Of a stretch of DNA of 64,000 bases, positions 13,320-62,954 are shown in pieces. Every line of letters starts with the position of its first letter. Within the stretch, counting starts at the first letter, position 1. The stretch comes from a virus. The DNA lies in UHGV virus genome UHGV-1364441; one strand, written 5' to 3'. The position numbers were made by a program, and so were the translations under genes. The notes under the pieces are model-generated. The model searched no databases. It was not told the origin of the DNA and was given only the letters and a program-made list of their open reading frames with translations.

Positions 13320-13655
13320 AATAACTTCATCCGTGCCTGTATCCTGTGTATACACAGTACACACGGAGAGGGCAAAGTGCAAGCACTATTCGGATGAACA
13401 GAGTTAGTTCGTTGTTCTGGAATTTATTGATTGTCAACAAGTGACTTTCATTAAACTTAAGGCATGGACCAGCTCGATAGTGAGCTGGTTGTTATCTACA
13501 GATCGAAGGGATTCGACAAGATGAATACTTTTAATAAGCTGATTGATTTATTGAATAAATTCATTAGCGCCTCTTTAACTAAGCAGGTGTCCACGTCAGT
13601 GTTTTTGTTACTCTTCTACCTGGTATTGCGGGAGTTAACAAAGCTACTGATGTGA

Positions 13656-44252: not shown

Positions 44253-44420
44253 TGATAGTAAATAAGCGAAATAATAACAACTGCGTTAGATTTGTAAAAC
44301 AAGAGAAATACTACTCAAGGCTGGGCTATATGCAACAGGTCGGATTTGCTTTTAGAGTAAAGAGTGACCTTAATCAACAAGGAGGGTAAATCGCATGGTA
44401 TTTACCCAACTTGTTATTTT

Positions 44421-44681
44421 TTAAATGTTTATTTTATCCGGTTCGGATATTTCTGTGATTGTCTTGTCGATTGCGATCAACCACCCTTCATAGGTTAAAT
44501 CGTCAACAAGCTCTACCAGTTTGTCTTCTGTATGAGGGAAGTATACCCAGCTCCAGCTCGCCGGGTTTTCTGCTTTTCGCAGCGTAAAAACCTTCTTGTA
44601 ACGGTGGAACTCAAGGACATACCCCTTCGATATGGAATATTCCTTTAGGTCTTCGAGCGTAAACCGACGGTTCTTTCGCAT
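44421..44681 (-). CDS. Hypothetical protein (86 aa)
   Basis: ORF adjacent to the next gene. Confidence 0.4.
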   Translation of the reverse strand: MRKNRRFTLEDLKEYSISKGYVLEFHRYKKVFTLRKAENPASWSWVYFPHTEDKLVELVDDLTYEGWLIAIDKTITEISEPDKINI

Positions 44682-44683: not shown

Positions 44684-45118
44684 CTACCCCATAATTCGAT
44701 ATTTCTCTATAGACTCATCGTAGCTTGTGTATACATATGGCTCTGTATCATCGGCATAAGCCGCGACTTCCAGAGCATGAACGGGATTGTATACCGCGTC
44801 ATTTTCCAGGCGATCGCTCGAATACAGATGTCCAGCTAAAACCGTAAGCGCCGGGCGACTCATTCTGTAGATCTCTGCCACATCGCTATCTACAACCTGT
44901 CCAAATGATGTGTCGCCGCGCTCCAGCAATATCGTTTTAAGCGCAGGCCACCACGGACCATAAAGGTGATAAAGCTGTGGATCTTTCTTTAGTCTTTCAA
45001 CCATCCCAGCGAGATATACTGTCAGGAACTCGTCTTCACTCCTGCCATTGAGCGCCTGCGGCAAAATTTCTTCAAGGTAAGATTCTGTCGGTTTAACTGT
45101 ATCAATTAATGTCGTCAT
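44684..45118 (-). CDS. Hypothetical protein (144 aa)
   Basis: ORF immediately downstream of the DarB-like gene. Confidence 0.45.
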   Translation of the reverse strand: MTTLIDTVKPTESYLEEILPQALNGRSEDEFLTVYLAGMVERLKKDPQLYHLYGPWWPALKTILLERGDTSFGQVVDSDVAEIYRMSRPALTVLAGHLYSSDRLENDAVYNPVHALEVAAYADDTEPYVYTSYDESIEKYRIMG

Positions 45119-45154: not shown

Positions 45155-48100
45155 TTAAGCCGCATCGGCGATTATTTTACGTAGTTCATCTACCGAGTAA
45201 CGAGTAGATACCATCCATGCCGGACGGTCAAAGTTCACATCAGCAACCGGGTTTGCTTCAAAATTCCAGAAACGCCCGCCAATCTTCTTAATCGCGTCCT
45301 TGGCGTTCCGTATTGTCGAGGAACCTGGCTGATCGGCAATGAGATAAACGGCACCCACATCTTCACTGACACTCCACCAGCGCCCGCGAACACGGGCTTT
45401 AGCGCGAATCGGCTTATCATTAACCACAATGATATAATCATCGTTCGCAGCTTCTTCAGCTCTGGCTTCAGCCACTGCCGCCTGCTCTTCTCTTTTGCTT
45501 TCAGCCTGCTCAAGTCTTTCTGCGATCTCTGATTCGGTGGCTCCGCCGTTTTTCAGCGATACATAGTCTTGCCACGTTGCCGATTTGAGCGCATCTGGTA
45601 ACTCATTCACATAGTCCCCGTCTTTCAAAGCTCGAGCACGGCGGACAGCCATTTCGACCAGGCGGTTAACAGAAACAGCATCAGCAAAATCGTCCTTACT
45701 AATGTGTTTTTCATCAAATGCATTGATGACAGCCCCCACCTTAATCCACTGTGCTGCTGGCGAATCCAGAGGATTATCGGCCTGAACAATGGCTAATTTC
45801 GCTCCATCGACACCATTATTAGCCAGCTGCTCCAATGCCGACCAGCCATCGGCATCGCTGAGTGATTTATATTGCTCAAACAATGCATCGCGCCAGGCCA
45901 CCAGCGCAGCTCGTGTTTTCTCAATTTTCGCCGTAATTTTCGCGGCCTTCACCTGATTAAACATCCGTTCAATGTCATCAGTGTTGCTAAAGGCTTTCAT
46001 CCTGCCCTGGAATAAACGGTATGCCACCACGGTCTTCCAGAAAGATTCCAGCCCTTCTCCGGACGGTTTACGGAACAGGCTAAGAATATCTTCAGAAGTA
46101 ACTTTATTAAGTGAGCGACCGGACAAACCACGCCCTGCCATCCAGTTTTCAAACTCCTGGGAAACATCATCCATCGTGGCCTGTGACCCCCATGCCTGCA
46201 TTCCCTGGATGTAATCATATCCATACAATGCCTGGAGGAATCCCTCGCCGTCCACGACATTCAGCGGGTTATCACTGGCTTGTATTTTTGCCACTTCACG
46301 CTTCAGCGCCTCATCGTTGCCATCAGGGTAAATCCACCGCTCAGGCGCTATATCCGATGCTCGCCCGATTTTTTGACCTATTACGCCATCATAAGCCGAT
46401 GACAGTGCAATCTGACCATCATCGGTGCGATAAGCCCAGTATTTAATAGCTGAACCACCGCCCCATACTCTACCAGGCTTCCCGGCAGTGACATTCATTA
46501 CCCCATTGCGAATAGCATCATAGAACTGATCGCGCGTAAGTGTTGTTGATAGCTGGTGGCATTGAACACCACGTGCAGCTGTTTCACGCGATTCTGCAAC
46601 TCCCTCTTCAAAGGTTACCGATTCAATTATCAGGTTAAAGGGCAAAAATAATGCCGTCCCCGGAGAACGAGAGTAACGACTAGCCACATCCAGCCAGGAT
46701 ATGCGGCACGTACACCCGCCCCTTTCCGCATCAATGGCGGTAACACGAACAATTGCTGTCGTATTGTGATTCTCATCGATGATCGCGCGATAATGGCTGC
46801 CCTTGTGCAACAAGATATTTTTCTCAGTGCGTACATACTCCTGTGGGTTCTGCAATACATCGGCATCAAGCTCCAGAACCCCGGCTTTAATCGCACGTTC
46901 CAGATCACCACGAGAACGTTTCATAACGGTGTCAGCGTCTTTAGCTCTGGTGATCGCAAAGCGTAGCTCCCGCACACGTTTTCTGTAGTCTCGCAACTGT
47001 TCCAGAACATATTTCTGCCCGTTCCTGTTCGTCCCCGCTTTAATCAGGTCGTCAAGATTGCGCTGGTAATGCTCTACCTGCTCCATCGCGCTTTTCAGTT
47101 CTGTCTCCATCATGCCGATATCTTTCCCGGCAGCATTCGCCGCTTTCAGGTAGTTATCGAGAGCATTATTGGCTTCGCGTAGGGCTTTCAGTTTCAGACG
47201 TTCTTCACGCTCTTGCGCCTGACGACTCATGATTGCACGGCGTTCTTCCGGATTTGCCGCCAGCATAATGGCGCGTTCATCTGCGTCATCCGCATCACCA
47301 TTGGCGATCTCTGACATGTCGGAGGTCATCACCATATTGATCCAGTCCTTCTTACGTTTCAGCGTATCCAGACGGAAGTCATCAAATGTGCCTTTGCCAC
47401 AATAGTAGTGAACATTGACCTTTTCTTGTGGTGAGCCTACCCGAGCGCCGCGCCCATTACGTTGGTCGATACTGGCAGGAGTCCAGGGTAGTGTCAGATG
47501 GTGGATATCGGTTGTCCCGATGTGCAAGTTAATACCTACTTCAGCCTTCTTGTTACAGATTATGATGCGCGTGCGACCTTCGTTATAGTCGGCGGCAATA
47601 CCTTCCATGCCCTCAAGGCCAGCATCATTTTTAGCTGAGAGATAATCCTCATATTGGGCAAGTTTGCTGTAGTAGGTTTCCCATGCACCTTCTTTGTATT
47701 CACCGTTTTTATTTGGCGTAGGTTCAGTCGGCTTATTCACCTTCTTCAGCTTGACGCCGCCAGCCTGGCTAACTGTCGTCGCATTGATAATGCCTATCTC
47801 CTGCTCCGGCATTTGCAGTGCACTGGCAATAATACGGCGCAGCTTCTGGTGCTGGGCTTTTTCATCAATGAAGACGATTTGTTTACCGTTCTTCAGACCT
47901 TCACGAAGGTTTTCGATCAGCGCGGCATACTTCGGCGGGATGGGGTGTGATACCTGCTGCATATCAATACCGGCAGCCGCAATGGCCTTCAGTATTTCAG
48001 CTTCCAGTTCAATGCCAGCACGTATTTCAACATGCGACGGATGTTCGCTAAAGGTGGTCTTCACTACCTTGCTGGTACGCGTACTGACCAGCCCACCAGC

Positions 48101-51100
48101 GCCATCTTCTTCGGCCTCGTCTACATCATCTGCCACTTTACCGCCAGCTACTTTTGGCAGGGCATCAGCAATAGCTTTTACCTTGTCTGCAAGCTCAACG
48201 GGGAACTGGAATGTAATCGCACTGGCATACAGATCAGGATCTATAGCAACCTTATCCATGTCGCGGATGATGGAGAAGATGAAATCATCCGGTTTTTCGT
48301 TTGTGATATGCCCGTTTTCATCGACCGTCAGCGCATCTTTACTACTTAACTCCTGTGCACGCTTACGAAGTTCTTCGTAAATGGCCTCTTGCTCTCCTGT
48401 CATCGGGATCTGCAAGGTATTCTCGACAATATCAGGGATTTTTACCGTCGCCCCGACGTCCGCAGCAGTCTTCAGAGTAGTCCAGCGATGGAAAATACCA
48501 CGCAGACCATCCAGGTTCTGGAAGCCCACCAGTCCCTGCTTCTCTTCCACCTCACCGGAAATTTTCTGAACCTGAACTGTGGCTGTTTTACCGAACACGC
48601 GAACGAAATCATCCGGCGTAACAATACCCATGCGCATCCACTCTTCCTGCGGAATGACAGTAGACAGCATGTTGAAAGCATCAATCGGGCTGTTCACCAG
48701 CGGTGTTGCCGTCAGCATAACCACACCACGCCCGTTGTTGCGTTTCATCATGTACGCAGCTTTTACAGCCATGTCGCGGGCCATTTTGGATACTGCCGGG
48801 TTAGGCAAATATGCCAGTTGCCCCGCTTCGCGCCCGGCGCTAAAGGAGTTGCGGTAGTTATGCCCTTCGTCGGCAATTACGCTATCGAAGTTCATATCCT
48901 CAAAGTACGGGATATTCTGCTTCTTCGTTGTACCGGTATTTGCGGCCTGGTCCTTAATCTTGTTCTTCTTCTGCGCGTCACGGTGTTTGCCAGATGCCAG
49001 GTCAAGACGCCCCATTTCCACAGCATTAAAGACCGCTTGCTGTGAGTTTTCCTCAATGGTTTCTTCTCGTAGCGGGATAGACGCGAATTGCTCTTTTGTC
49101 ATGATGACCGTTCGCCAATTTGACGACGGGATCATGTTCATGCGCTGAACGATAACGGCGCTGGCGGACTCTTTCACAACATTTCTGGTAAGAGCCTGCC
49201 CGTTACTGTCGAGGCGTGGTTCGCCATTTTCATCAAGCACCGGCGCGGTCAGAATATTTCCGCTGTCATCACGAACTTCATCCAAACCGATAAACATCAT
49301 ATTGGCGAAGGCATCAGCACTGTAGAAACTCTGTGCCTCGTGATACCAGTTCTGATAAACCGCCTTCGGAACAACAATACACGTGCGTTTAGTGCGACCT
49401 GTTTCGAAGTTATACGCCTCAAGCGCAAGCGCGGTCGTGGTTTTACCCAGCCCGGTGCCAAATCCCATGATGCCGCGCCCATCTTCTGATAAGCGACGAA
49501 CTTCTTCATTCTGATAAGTCAGAGGAATGCGCTTCCCACTAATCCCCTCCAGGCCAAGCGGTGCGTCAGAATGCGTAAACGGGATGAAGCCATTAAATGC
49601 GTCGTTATAGTCGCGGGCTATCTGATCAGCCTGCGGGTGAGTGCGTAACCAGTCGTTGAAGCTAATTTCCAGTTGAGCAATCTTATCCAGGTACTCGTTA
49701 GCGTTCTGCCCACGCGGTTTAATGCCGTTCAGGTAGTTTTCTAACTGGTTCAGGAAGCCGTCTTTATTGTTGGCCTTCTTGAACTCATTCCCGTTTTTGC
49801 CGTTTACGGTTCGTAGTTGATAGCCAGTAAATACCCCGTCCTTACCTTCGTAATCGTCCGGAGATACCAGAATGCCGTCCTCAACCTTAAGGTCGGGTTC
49901 TGTATACTTAAACTCGTCATAGCCTTGCTCTGCCAGGAACTCTTTTATCAAGCGGCGATCCAGCCAGCGGGCGTTCAGATTAACGGTGACTTTATTTAGT
50001 GGCGTGAAAATGCGTTTCTCTTCGATTTTCGCCAACTGACGCTCAAAGTTCGCTTTCTGCTCACCTGTTGACGCATCACGCCAGCCCACCAGCAATGCTG
50101 TTTTGGTTGCAATATCGCCGCTGGTGGCGCGGTCCATAGGCAGCAGGCAGCCATACCCATCAATAGCGATATCATCAAATTTCGCCAGGTATTCCAGAGC
50201 AGCATCGTCGTCTCCTGGCAGTTCGCCAGCAAACGCCTCACGAAAATAGTCCAGTGTGATTGGATTAAGTGCCACGTCACTGAAAAGGTGGGTTACAACT
50301 TGTTCCGGGCGTGTAAAGTCAATACCGGCAGCACCATCCGTTACATCAAGTCGTCCAGCAAGGAGGTCAGAAGCAGAGCCGTCCTGTTTCACGTTGCCAG
50401 TGAAAGTCATCCAGTTTTTAGCGCCAGCTTCAGCAATCCCATTCAGCTTAATCGCGTGCGGCGGACCATACTTCGCAATTTCGGCTTCCGCCAGGCGCGC
50501 GGCATCAGCAAGTTCATCATCAACATTTTCCCCCAGATTACGCTTATCAAGCGCCTTGTTGATCAACTGCCCTATCAGTGCGCCGCGCATAACGCGTTCT
50601 CTGTCTTTTTCTCTCTGCTTGCCAGCAAAGCGAATCATTGCCGCTACTTCATCACTGATAACCGACGGATAGTCGGACGCGATCGCCGATATCTGGTCCC
50701 ATGACAACGCCAGAATGCCATTTGTTGACTGAAACGCGATCTGCAGATCACCAAACGTCGTAACACCATATCGATTTACATCAAGCGCGGAGGATTTGGT
50801 TGTCGCGTCCTTGACCCATTTCAGACCATCAAACTCATGCCAGATGCCGCCTACAAGGCGTTTATCGCCCACTTTCGCGCCCTGCCATGCCTGAGTAGTT
50901 ACGCCAAGCAAATCCCAATTAATGCGGCTTTCAAAGCGGCGCGATAGAGCGGTTTTCATCGACTCATTGGATACACGACCGTCCTTTTTCACCACCAGGG
51001 TATTGCGGAAGCTGGTACGCTCCATATCGCCGTAAACAAATCGCTTCCCTTCGGTTGTAAACCATTTCCCTTTGAGGAAGGTATCCCAAAGGACGTTTGC

Positions 51101-51994
51101 CGACTTGAGCGTTGCATCATCCGTGTCGGGGATCATCTCCAGGAAGGTTTCCGGGTGTTTACGCAATACCCATACGTCCACCACTGTATCTGTACCGGAT
51201 TCGCTGAACGTACCAGAAGGCATACGATGTGCGCCCAAAAATTCCGCTTTACGGCTGACTTTATCGCGCAATTTTTTGTATTTCGTACCATCGGTCATGC
51301 CATTCGGCACCACCAATACAATTAGTCCACCAGGCTTAACCTTGTCGATCGTGCGCAGCACAAAATAATTGCCAACGTTCTTCTCGTTTGCATATGCCGG
51401 ATCAAGCCCGGCGACACCGGAACGCCCTTCGCCAAACGGTACGTTACCAACAGCATGGTCATACATTGCGTCTTTCGCCGCCAGAGCTTCAAACGCCCCG
51501 ATATTCACATCGTCTTCCGGGTGCAAAAGCTGGTTTATTCGACCGGAAATCGGAGACAGTTCGGCGCTGGTCATTATCATGCCCTGCCGTTTTGTCTCCT
51601 GGAAAATACCTGTGCCCGCTGATGGTTCCAGTACGTGCCCACCATCAATACCGTAGTCAGCAAACAGATCCCATATACCTTCAGCCATAAACTGTGGCGT
51701 GTAGTATTCGTATTGGCTGCCCTCACCATCTGTCAGGCCACCTTCACCGGTATACCCGGCAAGAATCTGACGTTGTTCGTCAGTTAATTTCGCCCCATCG
51801 AAGCCGGGCGGAAGGGAATTAAGAAGATTTACTGCGGCATTGTTTGCTGCCCGGCGTGTTTTCTGAATACTGACGCCATCGGCTTTCCTGACGCCAAAGG
51901 TCGCAACAGCACGTAATTTATGCAACCGACTAACAATTTCAATCAGTTCGCCTAAGCTGGAGGCTTCACTGATTGAATGAAGTAGTTTGTCCAA
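45155..51994 (-). CDS. darB: DarB-like giant anti-restriction protein: N6-adenine methyltransferase plus SF2 (DEGH/SNF2-like) helicase, 2279 aa
   Basis: SAM-binding LEPSAGTG, NVPFG motif, helicase Walker A GTGLGKT, DEGH box, LTATP, QRNGRGAR; size matches P1 DarB. Confidence 0.8.
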   Translation of the reverse strand: MDKLLHSISEASSLGELIEIVSRLHKLRAVATFGVRKADGVSIQKTRRAANNAAVNLLNSLPPGFDGAKLTDEQRQILAGYTGEGGLTDGEGSQYEYYTPQFMAEGIWDLFADYGIDGGHVLEPSAGTGIFQETKRQGMIMTSAELSPISGRINQLLHPEDDVNIGAFEALAAKDAMYDHAVGNVPFGEGRSGVAGLDPAYANEKNVGNYFVLRTIDKVKPGGLIVLVVPNGMTDGTKYKKLRDKVSRKAEFLGAHRMPSGTFSESGTDTVVDVWVLRKHPETFLEMIPDTDDATLKSANVLWDTFLKGKWFTTEGKRFVYGDMERTSFRNTLVVKKDGRVSNESMKTALSRRFESRINWDLLGVTTQAWQGAKVGDKRLVGGIWHEFDGLKWVKDATTKSSALDVNRYGVTTFGDLQIAFQSTNGILALSWDQISAIASDYPSVISDEVAAMIRFAGKQREKDRERVMRGALIGQLINKALDKRNLGENVDDELADAARLAEAEIAKYGPPHAIKLNGIAEAGAKNWMTFTGNVKQDGSASDLLAGRLDVTDGAAGIDFTRPEQVVTHLFSDVALNPITLDYFREAFAGELPGDDDAALEYLAKFDDIAIDGYGCLLPMDRATSGDIATKTALLVGWRDASTGEQKANFERQLAKIEEKRIFTPLNKVTVNLNARWLDRRLIKEFLAEQGYDEFKYTEPDLKVEDGILVSPDDYEGKDGVFTGYQLRTVNGKNGNEFKKANNKDGFLNQLENYLNGIKPRGQNANEYLDKIAQLEISFNDWLRTHPQADQIARDYNDAFNGFIPFTHSDAPLGLEGISGKRIPLTYQNEEVRRLSEDGRGIMGFGTGLGKTTTALALEAYNFETGRTKRTCIVVPKAVYQNWYHEAQSFYSADAFANMMFIGLDEVRDDSGNILTAPVLDENGEPRLDSNGQALTRNVVKESASAVIVQRMNMIPSSNWRTVIMTKEQFASIPLREETIEENSQQAVFNAVEMGRLDLASGKHRDAQKKNKIKDQAANTGTTKKQNIPYFEDMNFDSVIADEGHNYRNSFSAGREAGQLAYLPNPAVSKMARDMAVKAAYMMKRNNGRGVVMLTATPLVNSPIDAFNMLSTVIPQEEWMRMGIVTPDDFVRVFGKTATVQVQKISGEVEEKQGLVGFQNLDGLRGIFHRWTTLKTAADVGATVKIPDIVENTLQIPMTGEQEAIYEELRKRAQELSSKDALTVDENGHITNEKPDDFIFSIIRDMDKVAIDPDLYASAITFQFPVELADKVKAIADALPKVAGGKVADDVDEAEEDGAGGLVSTRTSKVVKTTFSEHPSHVEIRAGIELEAEILKAIAAAGIDMQQVSHPIPPKYAALIENLREGLKNGKQIVFIDEKAQHQKLRRIIASALQMPEQEIGIINATTVSQAGGVKLKKVNKPTEPTPNKNGEYKEGAWETYYSKLAQYEDYLSAKNDAGLEGMEGIAADYNEGRTRIIICNKKAEVGINLHIGTTDIHHLTLPWTPASIDQRNGRGARVGSPQEKVNVHYYCGKGTFDDFRLDTLKRKKDWINMVMTSDMSEIANGDADDADERAIMLAANPEERRAIMSRQAQEREERLKLKALREANNALDNYLKAANAAGKDIGMMETELKSAMEQVEHYQRNLDDLIKAGTNRNGQKYVLEQLRDYRKRVRELRFAITRAKDADTVMKRSRGDLERAIKAGVLELDADVLQNPQEYVRTEKNILLHKGSHYRAIIDENHNTTAIVRVTAIDAERGGCTCRISWLDVASRYSRSPGTALFLPFNLIIESVTFEEGVAESRETAARGVQCHQLSTTLTRDQFYDAIRNGVMNVTAGKPGRVWGGGSAIKYWAYRTDDGQIALSSAYDGVIGQKIGRASDIAPERWIYPDGNDEALKREVAKIQASDNPLNVVDGEGFLQALYGYDYIQGMQAWGSQATMDDVSQEFENWMAGRGLSGRSLNKVTSEDILSLFRKPSGEGLESFWKTVVAYRLFQGRMKAFSNTDDIERMFNQVKAAKITAKIEKTRAALVAWRDALFEQYKSLSDADGWSALEQLANNGVDGAKLAIVQADNPLDSPAAQWIKVGAVINAFDEKHISKDDFADAVSVNRLVEMAVRRARALKDGDYVNELPDALKSATWQDYVSLKNGGATESEIAERLEQAESKREEQAAVAEARAEEAANDDYIIVVNDKPIRAKARVRGRWWSVSEDVGAVYLIADQPGSSTIRNAKDAIKKIGGRFWNFEANPVADVNFDRPAWMVSTRYSVDELRKIIADAA

Positions 51995-52145
51995 AGGATT
52001 TCCCCCTCTAAACCGTAAAAATTTCCGCTATGCGGTACGGTTGAGAGGGTATGGAGAATGTTATTTTCATGGGGACGATACTACCGTCAAAATCACATAC
52101 TCCCCATAGTTTGCCTACTTATTAACCCATGACCGGGAGAAAAAT

Positions 52146-52631
52146 ATGGCAAATATTGAACCTCGCTGGCTAATTGAAGCCCGTAAGCACATTGGCCTGA
52201 CTGAAATAAAAGGCGCTAAACACAACCCTGAAATCGTTCAGTTCTGGCGCGACATCAAGCGCGGCGGAATTAAAGACGATGAAACGCCGTGGTGCGCAGC
52301 ATTTGTCGGTGCAATGCTGGAACGTGTAGGCATCCGCTCAACAAGATTTGAGTCGGCAAAATCCTATCTGGATTGGGGCGAGAAATTAGATACACCGGCA
52401 TACGGATGTATCGTTGTATTTACCCGCGTAGGCGGTGGGCACGTAGGCTTCGTTGTCGGACGCCGTGCCAATGGCGATCTGCTTGTCCTGGGTGGGAACC
52501 AGGGGGATGCGGTTAATATTCGCGCATTCCCAACATCAAGAGTGTCTGGCTATCGCTGGCCTGCTGGCGAACCACGCAATACCGCTCTGTTACCAGTCGG
52601 AGACGCAGCAACCTCAACTAATGAGGCATGA
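52146..52631 (+). CDS. CHAP/NlpC-P60-like cysteine peptidase (putative cell-wall hydrolase)
   Basis: Conserved Cys (TPWCAAFV) and His (GGGHVGFVV) arrangement; divergent from DarB-like gene. Confidence 0.55.
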   Translation: MANIEPRWLIEARKHIGLTEIKGAKHNPEIVQFWRDIKRGGIKDDETPWCAAFVGAMLERVGIRSTRFESAKSYLDWGEKLDTPAYGCIVVFTRVGGGHVGFVVGRRANGDLLVLGGNQGDAVNIRAFPTSRVSGYRWPAGEPRNTALLPVGDAATSTNEA

Positions 52632-52663
52632 AAAAAGCCCCGGCTTGGCCGGGGCATCACGCT

Positions 52664-52864
52664 TCAAGTCACGATCCAATCATTACCGACTATATCAGCC
52701 GTCGATAAATCAACTTCCCGGATCTGGAGTCCATTAATACAAAACCATCCGGTAGTAGAGTAATTATCAGGCCAGGCCCATACACCAACACTCCATGCTT
52801 TACGGCGGCACACTTCAGCCTGTTCTTCCCTGATTTTTTTTACCGCCTGCATGATGTCCATCAC
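52664..52864 (-). CDS. Hypothetical protein (66 aa)
   Basis: ORF coupled downstream of the Rha-like gene. Confidence 0.35.
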   Translation of the reverse strand: MMDIMQAVKKIREEQAEVCRRKAWSVGVWAWPDNYSTTGWFCINGLQIREVDLSTADIVGNDWIVT

Positions 52865-53553
52865 TCACCTCCCCAACCGATCACCTGGAATTGCCCCATT
52901 TTTGGGTGATACCAGCGTTTTCCTCGGTGTTCAGCCTCCGACATCATCCGGTTAAAAGCATTCATGAAGGGAGATAAGGCCACGATGGATCGACGCGACA
53001 ATACCCCCTCTGGAGTTAAAAACTCATGTGTATCGGTGGGAATCCGGTAAGCGTTGACCAGGTTGCGACATTTGGCTTTGGTCAGGCCGCATTTTGCCGC
53101 CAGCTGGCGGTAGCCAATGTAGCCTTCCGGCATATTGCCTTTCTTGATTTGCTCAACGGTTTCAGCGACCTGGCTAACCTTTGACTCAACAGCATGAAGC
53201 CGCTTTTGCTGCTGAACTGCATTTGCAGCCATTGCGGCGATCTTCTCTATTTCGGTCAACGGCTGGCGTACTTGTTCTTCCAGTTCGCGCCAGCGGTCCA
53301 CCAGCCGGGCGGTGAATTCCGGAGAGAGCTGCGCAACGACAATAATGCTGTCTCGTTTGCCTTGCTCGCCTTCGAAGACGTAATAGCTCGCCGGGCGGCC
53401 TGCGGTGGGCTTTTCCTCAATTTGAGGAAAAGATATTACGCCCCGTTCCGCTAGGTGTTCAATGGTGCGTTTAACGTTATCAGGGCGCTTACCTACCAGT
53501 TCCGCGATCTCAATGCTGGTCATTGATGGCTTTTCAAGAATGCAGATATCCAT
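52861..53553 (-). CDS. Rha-family phage regulatory protein (antirepressor-like)
   Basis: N-terminal Rha/Bro-N-like HTH region; ATG 53553 with GGAGG RBS, ATGA overlap with upstream ORF. Confidence 0.65.
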   Translation of the reverse strand: MDICILEKPSMTSIEIAELVGKRPDNVKRTIEHLAERGVISFPQIEEKPTAGRPASYYVFEGEQGKRDSIIVVAQLSPEFTARLVDRWRELEEQVRQPLTEIEKIAAMAANAVQQQKRLHAVESKVSQVAETVEQIKKGNMPEGYIGYRQLAAKCGLTKAKCRNLVNAYRIPTDTHEFLTPEGVLSRRSIVALSPFMNAFNRMMSEAEHRGKRWYHPKMGQFQVIGWGGE

Positions 53554-53975
53554 CAGTGTGCCTCCGCAATTCCGGAATTGGTAATATTGCGATACCAAGG
53601 ATTAGTGTTTGGTTGTGATGAAGAAGAGAAACGGCCAGTAAGGACGCCATGTTGATCAGGGATCAGAGAACGGGCTTCTTTTTCAGTTGCGGCAATTGCG
53701 AAGTGATCACAGTGTTTTTGCAGGGAGTGGAAACGCCAGATAAATTCCGGGCGCGAGCAAGGATTGGCATTAACCATAGTTACGGCCTCATTCGTAGGTT
53801 TAACAACCTGCGCCCCGCTGCTAAACGGGTGGCAGGACGTGACGGGGTTAGCAGACTGGCACGAATGAAACCAGCAGGCCGAAGCCTCCCCATCACGCCC
53901 CACCATAATTCGGGCGTAACGTGGTTTTACGGACACAAAAATACCGCAATATCGGATATCTGCGGTTGTCCGCAT
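53553..53975 (-). CDS. Hypothetical protein upstream of the Rha-like gene
   Basis: Coupled ORF; an antisense ORF 53649-53993 competes, so the coding frame is uncertain. Confidence 0.3.
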   Translation of the reverse strand: MRTTADIRYCGIFVSVKPRYARIMVGRDGEASACWFHSCQSANPVTSCHPFSSGAQVVKPTNEAVTMVNANPCSRPEFIWRFHSLQKHCDHFAIAATEKEARSLIPDQHGVLTGRFSSSSQPNTNPWYRNITNSGIAEAH

Positions 53976-54120
53976 TCGTATTCAGGCTGCTAAACCCGGT
54001 CGCAGAATTTGCTACGACGACATGAATATAAGCCTGAAAACATGGAAGATCAACTAAAAATTTCAGCAATGGATGACTTCAGTCGATGATGCAGATCATA
54101 CATTCCGATTTAGAAACGGC

Positions 54121-54144
54121 AAATTAATTTTCTAACACAAAATG
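54121..54144 (-). promoter_or_regulatory. Operator-like motif (minus strand TTTTGTGTTAGAAAATTAATTT), ~150 bp upstream of the 53975 start
   Basis: Instance of the recurrent motif. Confidence 0.5.
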
Positions 54145-58113: not shown

Positions 58114-59511
58114 TTAGTTTTCCATACTGCAATTATTTAGAACTGTAGAATTTTCAAACATAGCAAAGTTCAGACCTTTCCCTTCGCCAAATTCACCCTC
58201 AATTTCATCAGAAACGGCAGATAAAATGCTACGCAGATCGACATCTCCGCCGCCGAACATATCGCCTAACGCTTGTTGTTGGTGAATAAGTTCATCGTTA
58301 ATTTTTTGCGCCAGTTTCTTGAAAGCGGCCCCCATTCGCTTAGCGCTTCGGTTGTTGGCAACAATAAACAGAGCAAGCGCTTCTGCTTCCGGAGTGCTAT
58401 CTCCAAACAATCCACGCTGTGCGATCACCTCTTCTACTGCCTGACCGTTATCTTTTGCTTCACGAACAAGGTTAATTGCTTCCTGTAGCGCTGCAATAGC
58501 CTGTTTATCCAGGCCATTAACCTGCTCTATACCGTCCACTAAGCCTGTTACTGCGTCATGGTGAGCGTCGCCAGACAGCGACTGCATTTGCGCAAAATCG
58601 CTGGCTGCCGTATTTAATGCGGTCAGGATATTACGCATTTCCGGATCTGGCTCTTCCGACACTAGCCGAACAAGCCTTTCATCCTTGTACGCTTTGGCAA
58701 AAATTGCATTCTGGATGCGATCGATAAGCTGTTTCGTGGGACGCCCATCGGCAGTAAGCAAGCCTGCCGTCGCTGTATCGCCAATTTCGCGCAAAAACGC
58801 ACGAATAAACGCATCATTGGACCGCGCCAGCAGATTTCCATCATCTGAAGGATTAAATAGCGCCATGACGCTCTCAGTGAGAAATTGCGCATCCGCATAC
58901 GCTTTTTCACTTGCTGCCATCTCTTGCAGATCGCTAATGTTTGAATCGCGGGCAAATTGAGCGCGGTCTACATCTGTGAGTCTTTCTCGCACTAGTACGG
59001 GCATAGACATTTGCGAAATTTCGTCAGGATTCAGACCAAACTCTTTCGCATGGTCGATCAGGTACTGGCGATACTCATCCGCCTGTCCTTGCTCATAGGC
59101 ACGCCAGATACCCATACTCCTTCCGTTGCCGGATTCAACAACGTTGTCCGGACCAACTATCGGCGCTCCGTGGCTGCTCATACCGGAATCCGTTAATTGT
59201 GCCGGGCGTAAATTGGAGGCAATACGGTTAACCTGGAGTTTGCTGGATAGCCGGGTACGATCTCGTGGTTGGAGTTCTTCCGGGAAGGCCGGGTTAATCA
59301 TACCGTCAAGGTTGTTCGAAATGATCAGACTGCTGGCATCAACGACCTTAAAAGCCGTCTTTACCTCTGCACCTTTGCTGGTGACTACGTAGCTACTTCG
59401 CCCCAGGCGTGTTTCTTTCCTCTCTAATGAAGAAACCAGAGCAATGACGCTGTTAATATCTGCGGCCTCGGAAAGCGCAGAAGTAACTGATTTGTTCAAA
59501 ATACACTCCAA
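58114..59511 (-). CDS. Hypothetical protein (465 aa) with possible ParB/Srx-like N-terminal motif
   Basis: ELQPRDRTR segment resembles the ParB-like nuclease-domain QPR motif; weak. Confidence 0.4.
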   Translation of the reverse strand: MECILNKSVTSALSEAADINSVIALVSSLERKETRLGRSSYVVTSKGAEVKTAFKVVDASSLIISNNLDGMINPAFPEELQPRDRTRLSSKLQVNRIASNLRPAQLTDSGMSSHGAPIVGPDNVVESGNGRSMGIWRAYEQGQADEYRQYLIDHAKEFGLNPDEISQMSMPVLVRERLTDVDRAQFARDSNISDLQEMAASEKAYADAQFLTESVMALFNPSDDGNLLARSNDAFIRAFLREIGDTATAGLLTADGRPTKQLIDRIQNAIFAKAYKDERLVRLVSEEPDPEMRNILTALNTAASDFAQMQSLSGDAHHDAVTGLVDGIEQVNGLDKQAIAALQEAINLVREAKDNGQAVEEVIAQRGLFGDSTPEAEALALFIVANNRSAKRMGAAFKKLAQKINDELIHQQQALGDMFGGGDVDLRSILSAVSDEIEGEFGEGKGLNFAMFENSTVLNNCSMEN

Positions 59512-59593: not shown

Positions 59594-59968
59594 TTACCCG
59601 GCATAACCGTTGGCTTTCACCCAGCTTATGGTCTGTTCTTTAGCCTGCTCCAACGTAAGGAACTCGCCAACATAGTTTGAGATCCCACGCAGCGCATCAA
59701 TAAATTCCATTTGTGTGGACTTTGTGAACACGCCGCCCAGGAAGTCAGTCACTATCTTAGGAACTTCATCTGCAACAGGATCAGACTGTGGTTGTGGTTG
59801 CGGTTCCGACATCGGTTGAGCGGCAGTACCCAACCCCAGTTTAAGCATCAGATCAACAATCTGCTTACCAATGGCGACGCGTTGTAATACTGGCGCGGTT
59901 TTCTGCGCCTGCATTAAATCTGATAGCTCTTTACCCAATTTCAGACGGTCTAAAACAGAGATAGTCAT
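59594..59968 (-). CDS. Hypothetical protein (124 aa)
   Basis: Coupled ORF in same operon. Confidence 0.45.
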   Translation of the reverse strand: MTISVLDRLKLGKELSDLMQAQKTAPVLQRVAIGKQIVDLMLKLGLGTAAQPMSEPQPQPQSDPVADEVPKIVTDFLGGVFTKSTQMEFIDALRGISNYVGEFLTLEQAKEQTISWVKANGYAG

Positions 59969-61905
59969 TAAGCACCTCCCTGCTGAATTTCAGCCAGAAT
60001 GTTGATCAGGTAGTCAACTGCTGCGCCAACCGTTGATTCGTTCTCGTCGTATCGACCAGCACTGATAAGAGCGTTTGCAGCTTCCTGCACATGGTCAAGT
60101 TCGGCACTGATTACCGTCAGATCGCGAGATGTAAACTGCACCGGGACGGATTTAAGGTACTCCAACGCTTTATCTGCTTCCTGATCAGCTTCAGTTGCCG
60201 CTTCTTCAGCGTCTTCCGGCGTTGGCTGTTGCTCTGGTGCTGTTTGTGGGTGTGATTCTGGCTCAACTACAGGTGCTAATTCAGGCTCTGGCGTTACTTC
60301 GTTTGAATGATTTTGAAGGGCGTTATATACGTCCATAATGAAAAGGTTCTCCCCATCACCAAGTGGATACGCCACGTTTGGAAACGCTTTGCGGAAAAGA
60401 ATTTTCACTTGCGCCTTGAATGTTTTCAGGTCACTGCCAAACAGGTCTACATAGCCATCAATATGTTTCGACATGCTGGACACAACCAATTGGCCTGCAA
60501 AATCTTTCAGCTCATCTTCATCAGGAAGATAGAGCAACTCGTACTGGCTGACTTCTTCATCTGTCAGTTTACGGTCATACGTAATGATACCGTGACGAGC
60601 ATATTCGTAATACTGATCAGCCTGGTCAGGACGATCAAGCACGGCTTTATTTCCATCCGGCACAGCACCAACACCAGCCGGGCGAGATTGAAGTGCATAG
60701 TGGTATTTACCTACATCTTGGCTCTCTGGTTGTGATACTGGGTTCGTCTCGGGGTCTGTCTGTGGTGGTTCGGAGTCTTCCTGCTGGCCTGGTAACACAT
60801 CAACTTTATATTTATCTGCGTTATGCTCTCGGTAGGCTTTAAGTAATTTGGTTGCAGCATCTGCCAAACTGCCTCCTTTGACAGCACTGACATCAATACT
60901 GAATTTACCTTCAGGTGCTACTATCGTAACGAAATTGTCACTGCCGGACGTGACATAATTAACTTCAGCGCCATTATCCAGCACTGTTTTTCCGTCAATG
61001 GCAAGATTATGTTTTACATGTCGCAGCTGGTCACTAAACGCTCGTTCCTTCGTTTTTTTACCTTTAGCAGACAACAATTTATCGCGTTTTTCTTGTAATT
61101 CCTCGTTGATGGCTTTCTGGGCATCAAGTTTTTTTTGCATCTCCGTAAGAGCAGCACGCTTTTCAGTCAGCCCACGTTGCGCAACGTCCACCTGATCAAT
61201 CATTATTGACCGTTCTTCTGCCAGTTTATCTGCTTCATTGAGATAACTCTCAATATCTGCCTTCATTTTGTCCTGGCGCTCTTTTGCTTTCTTAAATTTT
61301 TCGCTGTTACGCTCAATCAAATTAGATAGCGCCTGGCATACCTGGCTTAAAGAAACATCTCTCCCACCAATCGGGGCGACAACGTGAGTTACGTTACGCT
61401 TATTAAGTAAAAACTGAAATGCAACAAGCTCGTCGTTACTCTTTATTTTTGCCCCGTCAGCTGTTGGAGAGTGGAAAATTATGCTTGTACTCTGCCCGTC
61501 AGTAAGCGGTATCTGCGCGGTCAAAACAGGGATATTAGCTACCCGACGTACACGACCGATAATCGCACCACCAATACAATTACGTCCATTTTCATCGGTC
61601 CCGGCTTCATCAGTCCCTGCCATAATATTCGTACCATTCAGGCCACGATTCAGCGCACGGACGAAAGCTCGCATTGTTTGAGCTAACCGAATTCTGGTTG
61701 TAGTTATGGACTCAAACATAGCTTCGTCAGACACAACCAGAATTTCATTGCCCATATAGGCAAGCTCAATATCTTCTAAGGTCGCCGCCTCAAAAATCAG
61801 GTCATCTTCGCTTAATTCTTCTGAAGACCAGCGACTTGGCATATAGCCGGGGATCGTATCAGCAAAAGTAGACTGAATATTAATTCGTAAAGGATTGTTA
61901 ATCAT
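59968..61905 (-). CDS. Large hypothetical protein, possible DarA-like internal head protein
   Basis: Size close to P1 DarA and position after LydA/LydB-like genes; start set at ATG 61905 (GGAGG 6 nt upstream). Confidence 0.4.
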   Translation of the reverse strand: MINNPLRINIQSTFADTIPGYMPSRWSSEELSEDDLIFEAATLEDIELAYMGNEILVVSDEAMFESITTTRIRLAQTMRAFVRALNRGLNGTNIMAGTDEAGTDENGRNCIGGAIIGRVRRVANIPVLTAQIPLTDGQSTSIIFHSPTADGAKIKSNDELVAFQFLLNKRNVTHVVAPIGGRDVSLSQVCQALSNLIERNSEKFKKAKERQDKMKADIESYLNEADKLAEERSIMIDQVDVAQRGLTEKRAALTEMQKKLDAQKAINEELQEKRDKLLSAKGKKTKERAFSDQLRHVKHNLAIDGKTVLDNGAEVNYVTSGSDNFVTIVAPEGKFSIDVSAVKGGSLADAATKLLKAYREHNADKYKVDVLPGQQEDSEPPQTDPETNPVSQPESQDVGKYHYALQSRPAGVGAVPDGNKAVLDRPDQADQYYEYARHGIITYDRKLTDEEVSQYELLYLPDEDELKDFAGQLVVSSMSKHIDGYVDLFGSDLKTFKAQVKILFRKAFPNVAYPLGDGENLFIMDVYNALQNHSNEVTPEPELAPVVEPESHPQTAPEQQPTPEDAEEAATEADQEADKALEYLKSVPVQFTSRDLTVISAELDHVQEAANALISAGRYDENESTVGAAVDYLINILAEIQQGGA

Positions 61906-62518
61906 GCTCATCCTCCAGGCGCGCGATTTCTTCTTTAAGAGCACGTGTCTTAGCTACTTCCTGAGACAAGGCAGCTTTAACATTACCCGTATCTTGCATT
62001 ACTTTGTCTGACTTGCTCTGGAGTTTAGACAGTTTGTCGTTAGCATTAGCGATATCTTCACGGAGTGCATCACGTGATTCTTTCGCTTCAGCTAATTTCT
62101 GAGCGTTAGATTTAACTCCCTGCCGCTTCTTATTTCCGTCATCAATATTTTTTGCTGCACGAGCAAGTTTTCGAGCTAATGACTTCTGGAAAGAAGTTGC
62201 TCCACGATTAAATAAAGCCGCAAGAGATTGCCCCAAAGCCGACATTGTTTTTACTGGCTTGAACGGTACTGTTTTACCATTCAGTTTGATCCCAGATATA
62301 TCACCGGTATCGTTAACCTGAACTTCCATTGTCTGTTCATCAATACCAATAAGGGTAAACGTGCGCGTCATGATCCCATCTTTCTTCCTGCCATTACTTG
62401 CAGGGATCACCCTCGCTATCTTGTAACCACCTTTGCTGATTTCTTTGACGAGTTTTGACAGCCCCTTTTCGTTTAACTCATCATAATTAAGAAGAACATA
62501 ATTATTCTTATTTGACAT
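61898..62518 (-). CDS. Coiled-coil hypothetical protein (206 aa)
   Basis: Start at ATG 62518 with AAGGAG RBS. Confidence 0.45.
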   Translation of the reverse strand: MSNKNNYVLLNYDELNEKGLSKLVKEISKGGYKIARVIPASNGRKKDGIMTRTFTLIGIDEQTMEVQVNDTGDISGIKLNGKTVPFKPVKTMSALGQSLAALFNRGATSFQKSLARKLARAAKNIDDGNKKRQGVKSNAQKLAEAKESRDALREDIANANDKLSKLQSKSDKVMQDTGNVKAALSQEVAKTRALKEEIARLEDEHD

Positions 62519-62954
62519 CCCAGTCTCCTTCACGCTTTTCGATCGTAAACTGGCGCTCTATGCAGTCATTGATAGGGAAAATGCGATAAAGCGGATTCAG
62601 TCGACAGTTACCGTTAGTCAATGTGACTTTCAGATCCCACTTCGTTGGTTCAAGATATTTCGTATCGATGAGCAAATACTCTTCTCTCTCACCGCGTTTT
62701 GAGGCGTCAACTGGTCGCGTTTTCCCTGAAATAACCACAGATGGATTTTTCAGGTCTTGCAACCAATATTCGATTTGAGCATTGCTGACCCAGCTTCGCT
62801 TAACACGTAGCGAAACAGGAAATGCTATAGCGGATTCTTTCACTACAGCGTCACCAATACTCAAAATCTCAACACTCTTGCGACGAAAAATGAAACGGTC
62901 AATGATGGCAACAAATGCCATGATAAAAATGAAATAATTTCCAAAGTTACCCAT
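62508..62954 (-). CDS. Membrane-anchored protein, possible LydB-like antiholin
   Basis: N-terminal TM helix; 148 aa; follows a holin-like gene as lydB does in P1. Confidence 0.35.
   Translation of the reverse strand: MGNFGNYFIFIMAFVAIIDRFIFRRKSVEILSIGDAVVKESAIAFPVSLRVKRSWVSNAQIEYWLQDLKNPSVVISGKTRPVDASKRGEREEYLLIDTKYLEPTKWDLKVTLTNGNCRLNPLYRIFPINDCIERQFTIEKREGDWDVK

What the first reader, a model, noticed from the sequence alone, without database searches (positions are those of the whole stretch)
45155..51994. DarB-like 2279-aa methyltransferase-helicase
A single protein combines an N6-adenine methyltransferase module (LEPSAGTG, NVPFG) with a full SF2 helicase (GTGLGKT, DEGH, LTATP, QRNGRGAR) and a long C-terminal extension. 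In P1 the equivalent protein is packaged in the capsid and protects incoming DNA from type I restriction. The version here appears divergent, and its own operon is separate from the late operon upstream.
Basis: partly seen in the sequence, partly recalled or inferred. Interest (0 to 1): 0.55.

Follow-up and report, generated by a model that had tools for sequence, protein, structure and literature searches.

The report
DarB anti-restriction gene, D6-type phage-plasmid
This 2279-residue methyltransferase-helicase is the already-annotated DarB (defence-against-restriction) protein of a D6-type, P1-like E. coli phage-plasmid, so the finding is real but ordinary; the only fresh points are a recombining C-terminal module of unknown function and a lineage-specific late-type promoter in front of the gene.

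Summary
The ORF is real: window 51994..45155, minus strand, 2279 aa, TTG start with a GAGGGGG ribosome-binding site.

It is 95% identical to phage D6 Orf15, which GenBank annotates as "similar to P1 gene darB". It is 43% identical and colinear with P1 DarB over aa 1-1953. The exact protein is already public, in a 90%-identity cluster of 4384 sequences, and 113 PLSDB plasmids carry at least 80% of the gene.

All six Dar genes (hdf, darA, ddrA, a half-length ddrB, darB, ulx) lie in the window. The methyltransferase and SNF2 helicase catalytic residues are invariant across 46 family members.

So this is a DarB ortholog, most likely packaged in the capsid, ejected with the DNA and protecting it from type I restriction. 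The biochemical mechanism is undefined even for P1.

darB-ulx-orf13 is indeed its own transcription unit, but it carries the same late-type promoter motif as seven other sites, several before structural operons. The same-strand neighbours upstream are ant/icd/repL, not a late operon.

New details: the C-terminal ~700 aa is family-restricted, has no informative fold match, and recombines as a mosaic cassette.

Interest is low.

The parts
45155..51994 (-). darB coding sequence, 2279 aa plus stop, TTG start
   Evidence: ORF list and translation. 95% aa identity to D6 Orf15 and 43% to P1 DarB. The exact protein is public.
51905..51994 (-). N-terminal 30 residues, positional equivalent of the P1 DarB capsid-targeting sequence
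   Evidence: In P1 the first 30 aa suffice for capsid targeting (PMC9024508). Here 8/30 are identical to P1, and P1 residues 6-10 are not conserved. This segment also varies among D6-clade alleles (65-72% in some).
51035..51817 (-). LPD36-like helical region (GEGG, aa 83-86), TP motif (T99-P100) and gamma-class N6-adenine methyltransferase (motif I LEPSAGTG, motif IV NVPF); about aa 60-320
   Evidence: Pfam N6_Mtase and Eco57I hits. The PDB sequence hit is a type I RM methyltransferase subunit, 7eew. G83, G85, G86, T99, P100, E123, P124, G129, N184, P186 and F187 are invariant in 46 family members. These features match the description in PMC5512222.
49535..51034 (-). Inter-domain region, aa 321-820, with no assigned family
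   Evidence: No Pfam hit even at E <= 1. Moderately conserved in the family (41-63% mean identity to the window protein).
47315..49534 (-). SNF2-type SF2 helicase/translocase, aa 821-1560 (motif I GTGLGKT, II DEGH, III TATP, VI QRNGRGAR), with long inserts between the lobes
   Evidence: Pfam SNF2-rel_dom, ResIII and Helicase_C. T847, G848, G850, K851, D1042, E1043, H1045, A1096-P1098 and Q1511-R1518 are invariant.
45158..47314 (-). C-terminal module, aa 1561-2279: helical stalk (about 1565-1703), beta-rich SH3-like/BAH-Tudor-like region (about 1720-1870), helical domain (about 1895-2182), small alpha/beta end domain (about 2187-2278)
   Evidence: AF2 model with a 75-sequence alignment, mean pLDDT 87.5. 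No Pfam or PDB sequence hit. No global fold match, only local BAH/Tudor/PWWP barrel hits. Only 27 cluster representatives in 1.84 billion proteins. About 8 invariant residues.
46595..47044 (-). Mosaic patch, aa ~1651-1800, strongly divergent from D6
   Evidence: 20-42% nucleotide mismatches against about 5% elsewhere. In this patch dS is 1.2-1.5 and dN/dS 0.14-0.22. Plasmid alleles of a 701-nt query spanning the patch (46400-47100) fall in discrete classes: >=99%, ~80% and ~71-73%.
52002..52008 (-). Shine-Dalgarno-like GAGGGGG, 7 nt before the TTG start
   Evidence: Read directly from the sequence. Conserved in D6 and largely in the Raoultella relative.
52046..52066 (-). Late-type promoter-like element for darB, AAATAACATTCTCCATACCCT (box plus TACCCT as -10), ending 52 nt before the start codon
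   Evidence: The motif AAATMACANNCTNNNTANNNT has 8 sites against 0.11 expected. It is conserved upstream of darB in D6 and in relatives with 77% and 66% DarB identity, and absent from the P1 loci. Function is inferred, not shown.
52090..52110 (+). Back-to-back copy of the same motif (1 mismatch), pointing at the divergent hydrolase-like gene 52146..52631
   Evidence: An equivalent divergent copy occurs in locus L006.
44684..45118 (-). ulx homolog (144 aa), 36 nt downstream of darB
   Evidence: PHROG 'Ulx-like anti-restriction', 3e-58. 48% identical to P1 Ulx. In P1, Ulx aids DarB localisation (PMC9024508). A ~142-146-aa gene follows darB in all three distant relatives examined.
44421..44681 (-). 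orf13 (86 aa), third gene of the unit, in the position of P1 lxc but without detectable similarity
   Evidence: phrog_6844, unknown function. No BLASTP hit to P1 Lxc. A 78-84-aa ORF is conserved in this position in relatives.
44384..44407 (.). Hairpin GGGTAAATACCATGCGATTTACCC, flanked by AACAAG/CTTGTT; probable end of the darB-ulx-orf13 unit
   Evidence: Terminator-like scan and sequence. There is no strong T-run, so its function is uncertain. A sigma-70-like promoter (10 of 12 matches) follows at 44298..44271.
52637..52655 (.). G+C-rich hairpin GCCCCGGCCAAGCCGGGGC, 8 G-C pairs, T-run on the minus strand; isolates darB from upstream minus-strand transcription
61898..62533 (-). hdf homolog (ORF as listed; true start may be slightly downstream)
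   Evidence: PHROG 'Hdf-like antirestriction', 2.3e-76. 40% identical to P1 Hdf. D6_28 annotation.
59968..61944 (-). darA homolog (ORF as listed; true start probably downstream)
   Evidence: phrog_1926 'released from the phage upon host infection', E = 0. 38% identical to P1 DarA.
59594..59968 (-). ddrA homolog
   Evidence: PHROG 'DdrA-like anti-restriction protein', 3.1e-49. 33% identical to P1 DdrA.
58114..59511 (-). ddrB homolog, half length (at most 465 aa against 995 in P1)
   Evidence: 64% identical to P1 DdrB aa 2-442 only. Matches profile positions 10-443 of 995. D6_25 is likewise 454 aa.

Best explanation
The gene encodes the DarB protein of a D6-type, P1-like phage-plasmid of E. coli.

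Shown here: it is a full-length ortholog of P1 DarB. It has an intact gamma-class N6-adenine methyltransferase and an intact SNF2-type translocase. It is followed by ulx and accompanied by hdf, darA, ddrA and ddrB. It sits in its own three-gene transcription unit (darB-ulx-orf13), behind a promoter-like element of the type that also precedes structural operons in this element.

Inferred from P1 experiments: it is made late, loaded into the procapsid (tens of copies) after Hdf/DarA/DdrA/DdrB with the help of Ulx, ejected with the DNA, and protects that DNA in cis from EcoKI/EcoBI-family type I restriction.

Inferred mechanism, unproven even in P1: the SNF2 motor tracks along the incoming duplex. 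Either it carries the methyltransferase so that adenines in type I target sites are modified before restriction complexes fire, or it blocks or displaces translocating type I complexes. The fast-evolving, recombining C-terminal module would supply partner or target specificity.
For: - Homology: 43% identity, colinear over aa 1-1953 with P1 DarB. 95% identity to D6 Orf15, annotated 'similar to P1 gene darB'. Whole-length match to phrog_1685, plus hits to DNA-methyltransferase and DarB-like PHROGs.
- Architecture as described for the DarB archetype (LPD36 GxGU motif, TP motif, NPP(Y/F)-type motif IV, SWI2/SNF2 ATPase; PMC5512222), with all these residues invariant in 46 family members.
- Purifying selection on the enzymatic core, dN/dS about 0.05.
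- Context: ulx directly downstream and hdf-darA-ddrA-ddrB upstream. The whole 24-kb region is syntenic with phage D6 at 95%. A ~142-146-aa gene follows darB in all three distant relatives examined.
- Late-type promoter motif upstream of darB, shared with the prt-pro, lydA-hdf-darA, ddrB and tail-gene upstream regions.
- P1 experiments: DarB, Ulx, DdrB, DdrA, DarA and Hdf were detected in virions, and DarB is needed against EcoK/EcoB (PMC9024508; PMC12810830).
- The window DNA carries 5 EcoKI, 16 EcoBI and 2 EcoAI sites, so it is a restriction target.
Against: - No experiment on this element: packaging, ejection and phenotype are all by analogy.
- The P1 capsid-targeting N-terminus is poorly conserved (8/30 identical; residues 6-10 differ).
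- DdrB, reported to aid DarB loading in P1, is only half-length here.
- The biochemical mechanism of DarB is 'not defined' (PMC11109961). That study also found that the anti-restriction seen with cloned P1 darB was a DNA-level artefact (Chi plus EcoKI sites triggering restriction alleviation) that persisted with catalytic mutants and stop codons. So there is no evidence yet that methylation is the protective act.
- Pfam N6_Mtase scores just below its gathering threshold.
Confidence: 0.85

Rival explanations
1. Same protein and same role (virion-delivered anti-restriction), but protection does not depend on DNA methylation. The SNF2 motor and/or the C-terminal module act as a roadblock, a remover of translocating type I complexes, or a direct inhibitor. 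The methyltransferase domain then serves for DNA binding, or modifies DNA for another purpose.
For: The mechanism is explicitly undefined (PMC11109961). Protection in P1 is in cis (PMC5512222), which fits a DNA-bound protein. The C-terminal module varies in discrete alleles while the enzymes are nearly invariant, as expected if specificity lies in protein-protein or other non-catalytic contacts. There is no recognisable target-recognition domain.
Against: The methyltransferase catalytic residues are invariant across a family down to about 36-40% identity and under strong purifying selection. That argues the enzyme is used.
Confidence: 0.35
2. The protein is not a virion component. It is a prophage- or plasmid-expressed methyltransferase-helicase that modifies the element's own DNA or the host's, for epigenetic, regulatory or self-protection purposes in the lysogen.
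For: A weak sigma-70-like match (TTGACG-16-GAAAAT, 9 of 12) overlaps the upstream region, and P1 darB is annotated with a predicted sigma-70 promoter. RefSeq names the protein only 'SNF2-related protein'.
Against: The ortholog in P1 is found in virions by mass spectrometry. The gene sits with ulx among morphogenesis genes. It carries the motif shared with structural operons. Sigma-70-like hits in the region are no more frequent than in shuffled sequence (10 against 12.4 expected).
Confidence: 0.05
3. It is part of an anti-phage defence system of the lysogen (DISARM, Zorya, Dpd or BREX-like methyltransferase plus SNF2 helicase), not an anti-defence protein.
For: PADLOC and NCBIfam models for DrmD, ZorD, DpdE and BrxHII give hits.
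Against: These hits cover only generic helicase motifs. They score 15-44 bits against curated cut-offs of 500-1100. No partner genes of those systems are adjacent. Full-length homology is to DarB.
Confidence: 0.02

Closest known systems
Phage D6 Orf15 (ASR76325.1, 'defense against restriction; similar to P1 gene darB')
   Same: 95% amino-acid and 92.5% nucleotide identity over the full length. Same TTG start, the same flanking genes (orf16 hydrolase-like gene upstream and divergent; ulx and orf13 downstream), and the same upstream promoter-like motif.
   Different: A mosaic patch at aa ~1651-1800 is only about 66% identical. Smaller high-dS patches occur at aa 481-600 and 1161-1240. The window allele of that patch region is shared at >=99% by 27 PLSDB plasmids, whereas most carry an ~80%-identity allele, the class D6 appears to fall in from its 20-42% mismatch there.
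Phage P1 DarB (AAQ13985.1, 2255 aa)
   Same: Colinear architecture: N-terminal helical region, N6-adenine methyltransferase, SNF2 helicase and a long C-terminal extension. 43% identity over aa 1-1953, rising to 55-68% in the catalytic cores. ulx lies immediately downstream. It is part of a six-gene Dar system.
   Different: - The C-terminal 680 aa are only 18-25% identical.
- The N-terminal capsid-targeting 30-mer is 8/30 identical.
- Gene order differs: in P1, pro-prt are divergent from darB, while here a hydrolase-like gene is divergent and prt-pro lie upstream on the same strand beyond repL/icd/ant.
- P1 has a predicted sigma-70 PdarB, while here there is a D6-clade late-type motif.
- The partner DdrB is half-length here.
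Methylase-helicase dyad of 'polyvalent proteins' in phages and conjugative elements (Iyer et al. 2017, PMC5512222)
   Same: LPD36-like N-terminal region with a GxGU motif, a TP motif, an EcoKI/TaqI-like adenine methyltransferase and a SWI2/SNF2 ATPase with helical inserts.
   Different: The P1/D6 DarB family has a fixed ~2200-2300-aa architecture with its own family-restricted C-terminal module. It lacks the variable extra effector domains of larger polyvalent proteins. For scale, PHROG 10089 ('DarB-like antirestriction') has a 4647-position profile, of which only the methyltransferase part matches here.
SNF2 helicases of defence systems (DISARM DrmD, Zorya ZorD, DpdE)
   Same: They share SF2/SNF2 helicase motifs.
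   Different: Scores are far below the family cut-offs, there is no system context, and the biological role is the opposite one (anti-defence).

Membership tests
DarB (P1-type defence-against-restriction protein B) | Full-length, colinear sequence homology to P1 DarB | tested here: met
   BLASTP E = 0, 43% identity over aa 1-1953 of 2279. The global alignment shows weaker but continuous similarity to the end. HMMER links the C-terminal region to other 2200-2300-aa family members.
DarB (P1-type defence-against-restriction protein B) | N-terminal N6-adenine methyltransferase with intact SAM-binding motif I and catalytic motif IV | tested here: met
   LEPSAGTG and NVPF are present and invariant in the family. 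Pfam N6_Mtase is borderline (20.2 vs 20.4 bits). A PDB type I methyltransferase subunit hits at 5.8e-4.
DarB (P1-type defence-against-restriction protein B) | Central SNF2/SF2 helicase with motifs I, II, III and VI intact | tested here: met
   Pfam SNF2-rel_dom 9.4e-14, ResIII and Helicase_C above cut-off. Motif residues are invariant.
DarB (P1-type defence-against-restriction protein B) | Encoded by a P1-like phage or phage-plasmid next to ulx and together with hdf, darA, ddrA and ddrB | tested here: met
   Caveat: ddrB is half-length.
DarB (P1-type defence-against-restriction protein B) | N-terminal capsid-targeting sequence (first 30 aa sufficient in P1) | tested here: inconclusive
   Only 8/30 residues are identical to P1, and P1 residues 6-10 are not conserved (PMC9024508). 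The partners DarA and Hdf are also only 38-40% identical, so co-evolution is possible.
DarB (P1-type defence-against-restriction protein B) | Physical presence in the virion head and ejection with the DNA | not testable with these tools
   Requires virion proteomics. Shown only for P1.
DarB (P1-type defence-against-restriction protein B) | Protects infecting DNA from EcoK/EcoB-family type I restriction | not testable with these tools
   Requires plating assays. Shown only for P1.
DISARM DrmD / Zorya ZorD / DpdE defence helicases | Score above the curated family threshold, plus system partner genes nearby | tested here: not met
   Best score is 43.7 bits against a cut-off of 610 (DrmD), and 31.6 against 500 (DpdE). 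The neighbours are phage morphogenesis and Dar genes.

The most novel reading that the evidence does not exclude
The C-terminal ~640 residues (aa ~1640-2200: helical stalk, BAH/Tudor-like beta region and helical domain) would be an exchangeable specificity cassette of DarB. Among otherwise 95-100% identical E. coli alleles this module drops to 42-82% identity and occurs in discrete allele classes. It would set which host restriction systems (or which capsid or partner proteins) a given DarB works against. Phage-plasmid populations would then shuffle it by recombination in an arms race, while the methyltransferase-translocase engine stays fixed.
Probability: 0.2. Interest if true: 0.45.

Novelty: already known. 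Interest (0 to 1): 0.15.

Why it matters
As a gene identification it adds nothing. The D6 homolog has been annotated as darB since 2017-2018, and the exact protein is already in public databases.

It matters only as context. DarB is among the largest proteins known to be delivered by a phage capsid, and how it defeats type I restriction is still unknown. D6-type phage-plasmids are common in E. coli, Salmonella and Shigella.

Two by-products could help people working on that question:
- A confident model and allele map show that the catalytic core is frozen while the C-terminal module is mosaic. This points to where specificity might lie.
- A D6-clade late-type promoter motif places darB in the late regulon. 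It would be useful for annotating these elements.

Tried and rejected
- Single-sequence AlphaFold of the C-terminal 679 aa gave pLDDT 41 and was unusable. It was replaced by an alignment-based model.
- A word-indexed homolog search with the C-terminal region returned only 12 close relatives. The exhaustive HMMER search showed the region is simply family-restricted.
- A PDB sequence search and Pfam scans of the N-terminal 120 aa, the inter-domain linker, the helicase insert and the C-terminus gave nothing significant.
- The P1-type late promoter (AAGTNACTT-4-TANNNT) occurs cleanly only once in the window (13439-13457) and not at darB. The first impression that TATGTGATTT upstream of darB was a P1-like -22 box was dropped once it proved to be the reverse-strand copy of the D6-clade motif.
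- The P1 C1-operator consensus has no match at up to 3 mismatches. So the shared motif is not a P1-type operator. A D6-specific operator cannot be formally excluded, but it is unlikely given the motif's location before structural genes and its absence before repL and icd/ant.
- The defence-system reading was rejected on scores and context.
- Positive selection in the variable patch was rejected: dN/dS is 0.14-0.22 with saturated dS, which indicates imported old alleles.
- Three papers could not be retrieved: Piya et al. 2017, Gilcrease & Casjens 2018 and Lobocka et al. 2004. So I cannot say whether the D6 late-promoter motif or the DarB mosaicism has been published.

Full report
**Observation.** The window has one uninterrupted ORF from 51994 down to 45155 on the minus strand: 2279 codons plus stop, starting with TTG. 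The TTG is preceded by GAGGGGG and a 7-nt spacer. It is also the annotated start in phage D6 and is conserved in relatives of 77% and 66% protein identity. The product aligns with P1 DarB from residue 1. Pfam reports SNF2-rel_dom, ResIII and Helicase_C above threshold and N6_Mtase just below it.

**What the element is.** Megablast of the gene finds phage D6 at 92.5% over the full length, and P1, P7 and SJ46 only over a short conserved core. The 24 kb around the gene are 95% identical and syntenic to D6. In PLSDB, 113 plasmids (E. coli, Salmonella, Shigella; about 90 kb, non-mobilisable) carry at least 80% of the gene, up to 99.3% identity. The window is therefore part of a D6-type, P1-like phage-plasmid.

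**What the protein is.** The protein is 95% identical to D6 Orf15, which GenBank annotates as 'defense against restriction; similar to P1 gene darB'. Against P1 DarB itself, BLASTP gives 43% identity in one colinear alignment over aa 1-1953. Identity reaches 50-68% in the methyltransferase and helicase cores and falls to 18-25% over the last 680 residues. The exact sequence is already public, in a 90%-identity cluster of 4384 sequences named 'SNF2-related protein' or 'DEAD/DEAH box helicase family protein'. A database search returns over a thousand relatives. The full-length ones are uniformly 2200-2320 aa, sit on 80-100-kb contigs, and come from Enterobacterales and Aeromonas.

**The Dar system.** The genes that make up the P1 Dar system are all in the window.
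- ulx lies 36 nt downstream of darB (45118..44684; 48% identical to P1 Ulx).
- hdf (62533..61898; 40%), darA (61944..59968; 38%) and ddrA (59968..59594; 33%) lie upstream.
- ddrB (59511..58114) is 64% identical to P1 DdrB but corresponds only to its first ~440 residues.

So DarB is not unusually divergent; its distance from P1 is that of the whole D6 lineage. A ~142-146-aa gene and a 78-84-aa ORF follow darB in all three distant relatives I fetched. This holds whether they have the D6 gene order or the P1 order, in which pro-prt are divergent from darB.

**Integrity of the enzymes.** In an alignment of the window protein with 45 family members down to about 36% identity, 269 positions are at least 98% conserved, nearly all in aa 1-1565. 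They include:
- the GxGG of the N-terminal helical region (G83, G85, G86) and the TP motif (T99, P100);
- methyltransferase motif I (E123, P124, G129) and motif IV (N184, P186, F187);
- helicase motifs I (T847, G848, G850, K851), II (D1042, E1043, H1045), III (A1096-P1098) and VI (Q1511-R1518).

These are the features Iyer et al. describe for the DarB archetype of the 'methylase-helicase dyad' (PMC5512222). Window-versus-D6 dN/dS is about 0.05 over aa 1-1640. Both activities are evidently maintained.

**Rival family assignments.** Defence-system models (DrmD, ZorD, DpdE, BrxHII) hit only generic helicase motifs. They score 15-44 bits against curated cut-offs of 500-1100, and no partner genes are nearby. 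That reading is rejected.

**Transcription unit.** Immediately upstream of darB is a 151-bp gap and a divergent gene (52146..52631, TIGR02594 / tail-lysozyme-like). A G+C-rich hairpin with 8 G-C pairs follows it at 52637-52655. Beyond that, on the darB strand, lie an anti-repressor-like gene, icd, repL, and only then pro and prt. Downstream, ulx and orf13 follow with 36-nt and overlapping junctions. Then come a hairpin (44407..44384) and a good sigma-70-like promoter for the next gene.

**A shared promoter-like motif.** Aligning the upstream region with D6 and with relatives of 77% and 66% DarB identity revealed two conserved blocks. They turned out to be two oppositely oriented copies of one motif. 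Written as AAATMACANNCTNNNTANNNT, it has 8 sites in the window at up to 1 mismatch, against 0.11 expected. The sites lie upstream of:
- lydA (the hdf-darA-ddrA operon), ddrB and prt-pro;
- darB (52066..52046, ending 52 nt before the start) and the divergent hydrolase-like gene;
- lpa, a tail/baseplate operon, and one gene of unknown function.

In P1, the positions before lydA and prt hold the late promoters LPdar and LPpro. The motif recurs at the same places in D6 and before darB in the two relatives, and is absent from the P1 loci. The P1-type late box occurs cleanly only once in the window (13439-13457), and no P1 C1 operator is found. The window's Lpa is only 31% identical to P1 Lpa. My inference is that this is the D6-clade late promoter and that darB is a late gene with its own promoter. 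That is consistent with loading into procapsids. It rests on a statistical and comparative argument, not on a transcript map, and I could not retrieve the D6 paper to see whether it is already described.

**The C-terminal module.** The last ~720 residues have no Pfam or PDB sequence match. In an exhaustive search of 1.84 billion cluster representatives they hit only 27, the full-length ones being DarB-sized proteins at 22-29% identity. Only about 8 positions are invariant in the family.

**Mosaicism.** Against D6, aa ~1651-1800 shows 20-42% nucleotide mismatches against about 5% elsewhere. Plasmid alleles of a 701-nt query spanning that patch fall into discrete classes at >=99%, ~80% and ~71-73%. 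Four other D6-clade alleles (E. coli and Salmonella) are mostly 95-100% identical to the window protein over aa ~41-1640, apart from a few lower blocks, but only 42-82% identical over most of aa 1641-2200, recovering to 85-93% at the extreme C-terminus. dS jumps from about 0.2 to 1.2-1.5 in the patch while dN/dS stays at 0.14-0.22. These are old alleles moved by recombination, not recent positive selection. The first 40 residues, the region of the P1 capsid-targeting signal, also vary between alleles.

**How it most likely works.** P1 experiments show several things. All six Dar proteins are in the virion, and about 40 DarB copies are loaded last with the help of Ulx and DdrB. The N-terminal 30 residues suffice for capsid targeting. 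DarB is needed against EcoK and EcoB (PMC9024508; PMC12810830). Protection acts in cis on the ejected DNA (PMC5512222).

By orthology I assign the same role here with high confidence. The biochemical step is not known. A 2024 study states the mechanism 'has not been defined'. It also shows that anti-restriction seen with cloned P1 darB came from Chi and EcoKI sites in the DNA, which trigger restriction alleviation, and not from the protein (PMC11109961).

I favour a DNA-tracking SNF2 motor carrying an adenine methyltransferase along the entering DNA, as proposed by Iyer et al., because both catalytic centres are strictly conserved. A methylation-independent roadblock or inhibitor mechanism remains a serious rival at about 0.35.

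**Weak points of the analogy.** The capsid-targeting 30-mer is only 8/30 identical to P1, and DdrB is half-length.

**Verdict.** The finding is real and correctly interpreted, but it is an already annotated, very common gene. Novelty: already known. Interest: 0.15. The by-products worth keeping are the mosaic, family-restricted C-terminal module with a confident model but no recognisable function, and the D6-clade late-type promoter motif.

Noticed in passing
window 63313-63333(-), 59529-59549(-), 58082-58102(-), 52046-52066(-), 52090-52110(+), 38020-38040(-), 14446-14466(-), 10607-10627(-): The motif AAATMACANNCTNNNTANNNT occurs 8 times against 0.11 expected. It lies upstream of lydA-hdf-darA, ddrB, prt-pro, darB, the hydrolase-like gene, lpa, an unknown gene and a tail/baseplate operon. 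It is conserved in D6 and in two more distant relatives and absent from the P1 loci. It is probably the D6-clade late promoter, differing from the P1 AAGTNACTT box. The window Lpa is only 31% identical to P1 Lpa. I could not check whether it has been published.
   Followed up: partly
window 13436-13457 (+): A single perfect P1-type late promoter, AACAAGTGACTTTCATTAAACT, sits just upstream of a 63-aa ORF (13464..13655). It is the only clean P1-type late box in 64 kb, so two late-promoter types may coexist in this element.
   Followed up: no
window 58114-59511 (-): The DdrB homolog is at most 465 aa. It matches only the first ~440 residues of the 995-aa P1 DdrB (64% identity), as in D6. The C-terminal half of P1 DdrB has no counterpart at this locus.
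   Followed up: partly
window 45158-47074 (-), DarB aa ~1640-2279; also 51875-51994 (aa 1-40): D6-clade DarB alleles are mostly 95-100% identical in the enzymatic part. They fall to 42-82% in most of the C-terminal module, which occurs in discrete allele classes, and to 65-72% in the first 40 residues. dS is very uneven along the gene (0.14 to 1.46), indicating recombination breakpoints inside darB.
   Followed up: partly
whole window; darB 45155-51994: Chi sites (GCTGGTGG) are strongly enriched: 49 on both strands in 64 kb against about 1.7 expected, 6 of them inside darB. The window also has 5 EcoKI, 16 EcoBI and 2 EcoAI sites, with no EcoKI site inside darB.
   Followed up: no
window 52146-52631 (+): A 161-aa TIGR02594-family protein (tail-lysozyme / CHAP-like peptidoglycan hydrolase) is encoded divergently from darB. 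It has its own copy of the late-type motif. P1 has no gene in this position (pro-prt are there instead).
   Followed up: partly
window 52637-52655: A very stable hairpin, GCCCCGGCCAAGCCGGGGC (8 G-C pairs), lies between the hydrolase-like gene and the anti-repressor-like gene. It looks like a terminator for both converging units.
   Followed up: no
window 44421-44681 (-): orf13 (86 aa, phrog_6844, unknown function) occupies the place of P1 lxc after ulx, but shows no detectable similarity to Lxc. An ORF of 78-84 aa is conserved at this position in distant relatives.
   Followed up: partly
window 44377-44415: The hairpin GGGTAAATACCATGCGATTTACCC is extended by flanking AACAAG/CTTGTT, right after orf13 and before a strong sigma-70-like promoter (44298..44271, TTTACA-16-TATTAT with an upstream TG). 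It has no T-run, so it may be a regulatory site rather than a simple terminator.
   Followed up: no
whole window: No match to the P1 C1 operator consensus ATTGCTCTAATAAATTT at up to 3 mismatches, although the window holds homologs of genes that are C1-controlled in P1 (repL, icd/ant, lpa). The D6-type repressor presumably recognises a different operator.
   Followed up: no
window 52861-58049 compared with P1: Gene order differs from P1. Here prt-pro, repL, icd and an anti-repressor-like gene lie upstream of darB on the same strand. In P1 (and in an Enterobacter relative with 54% DarB identity) pro-prt are transcribed divergently from darB.
   Followed up: partly
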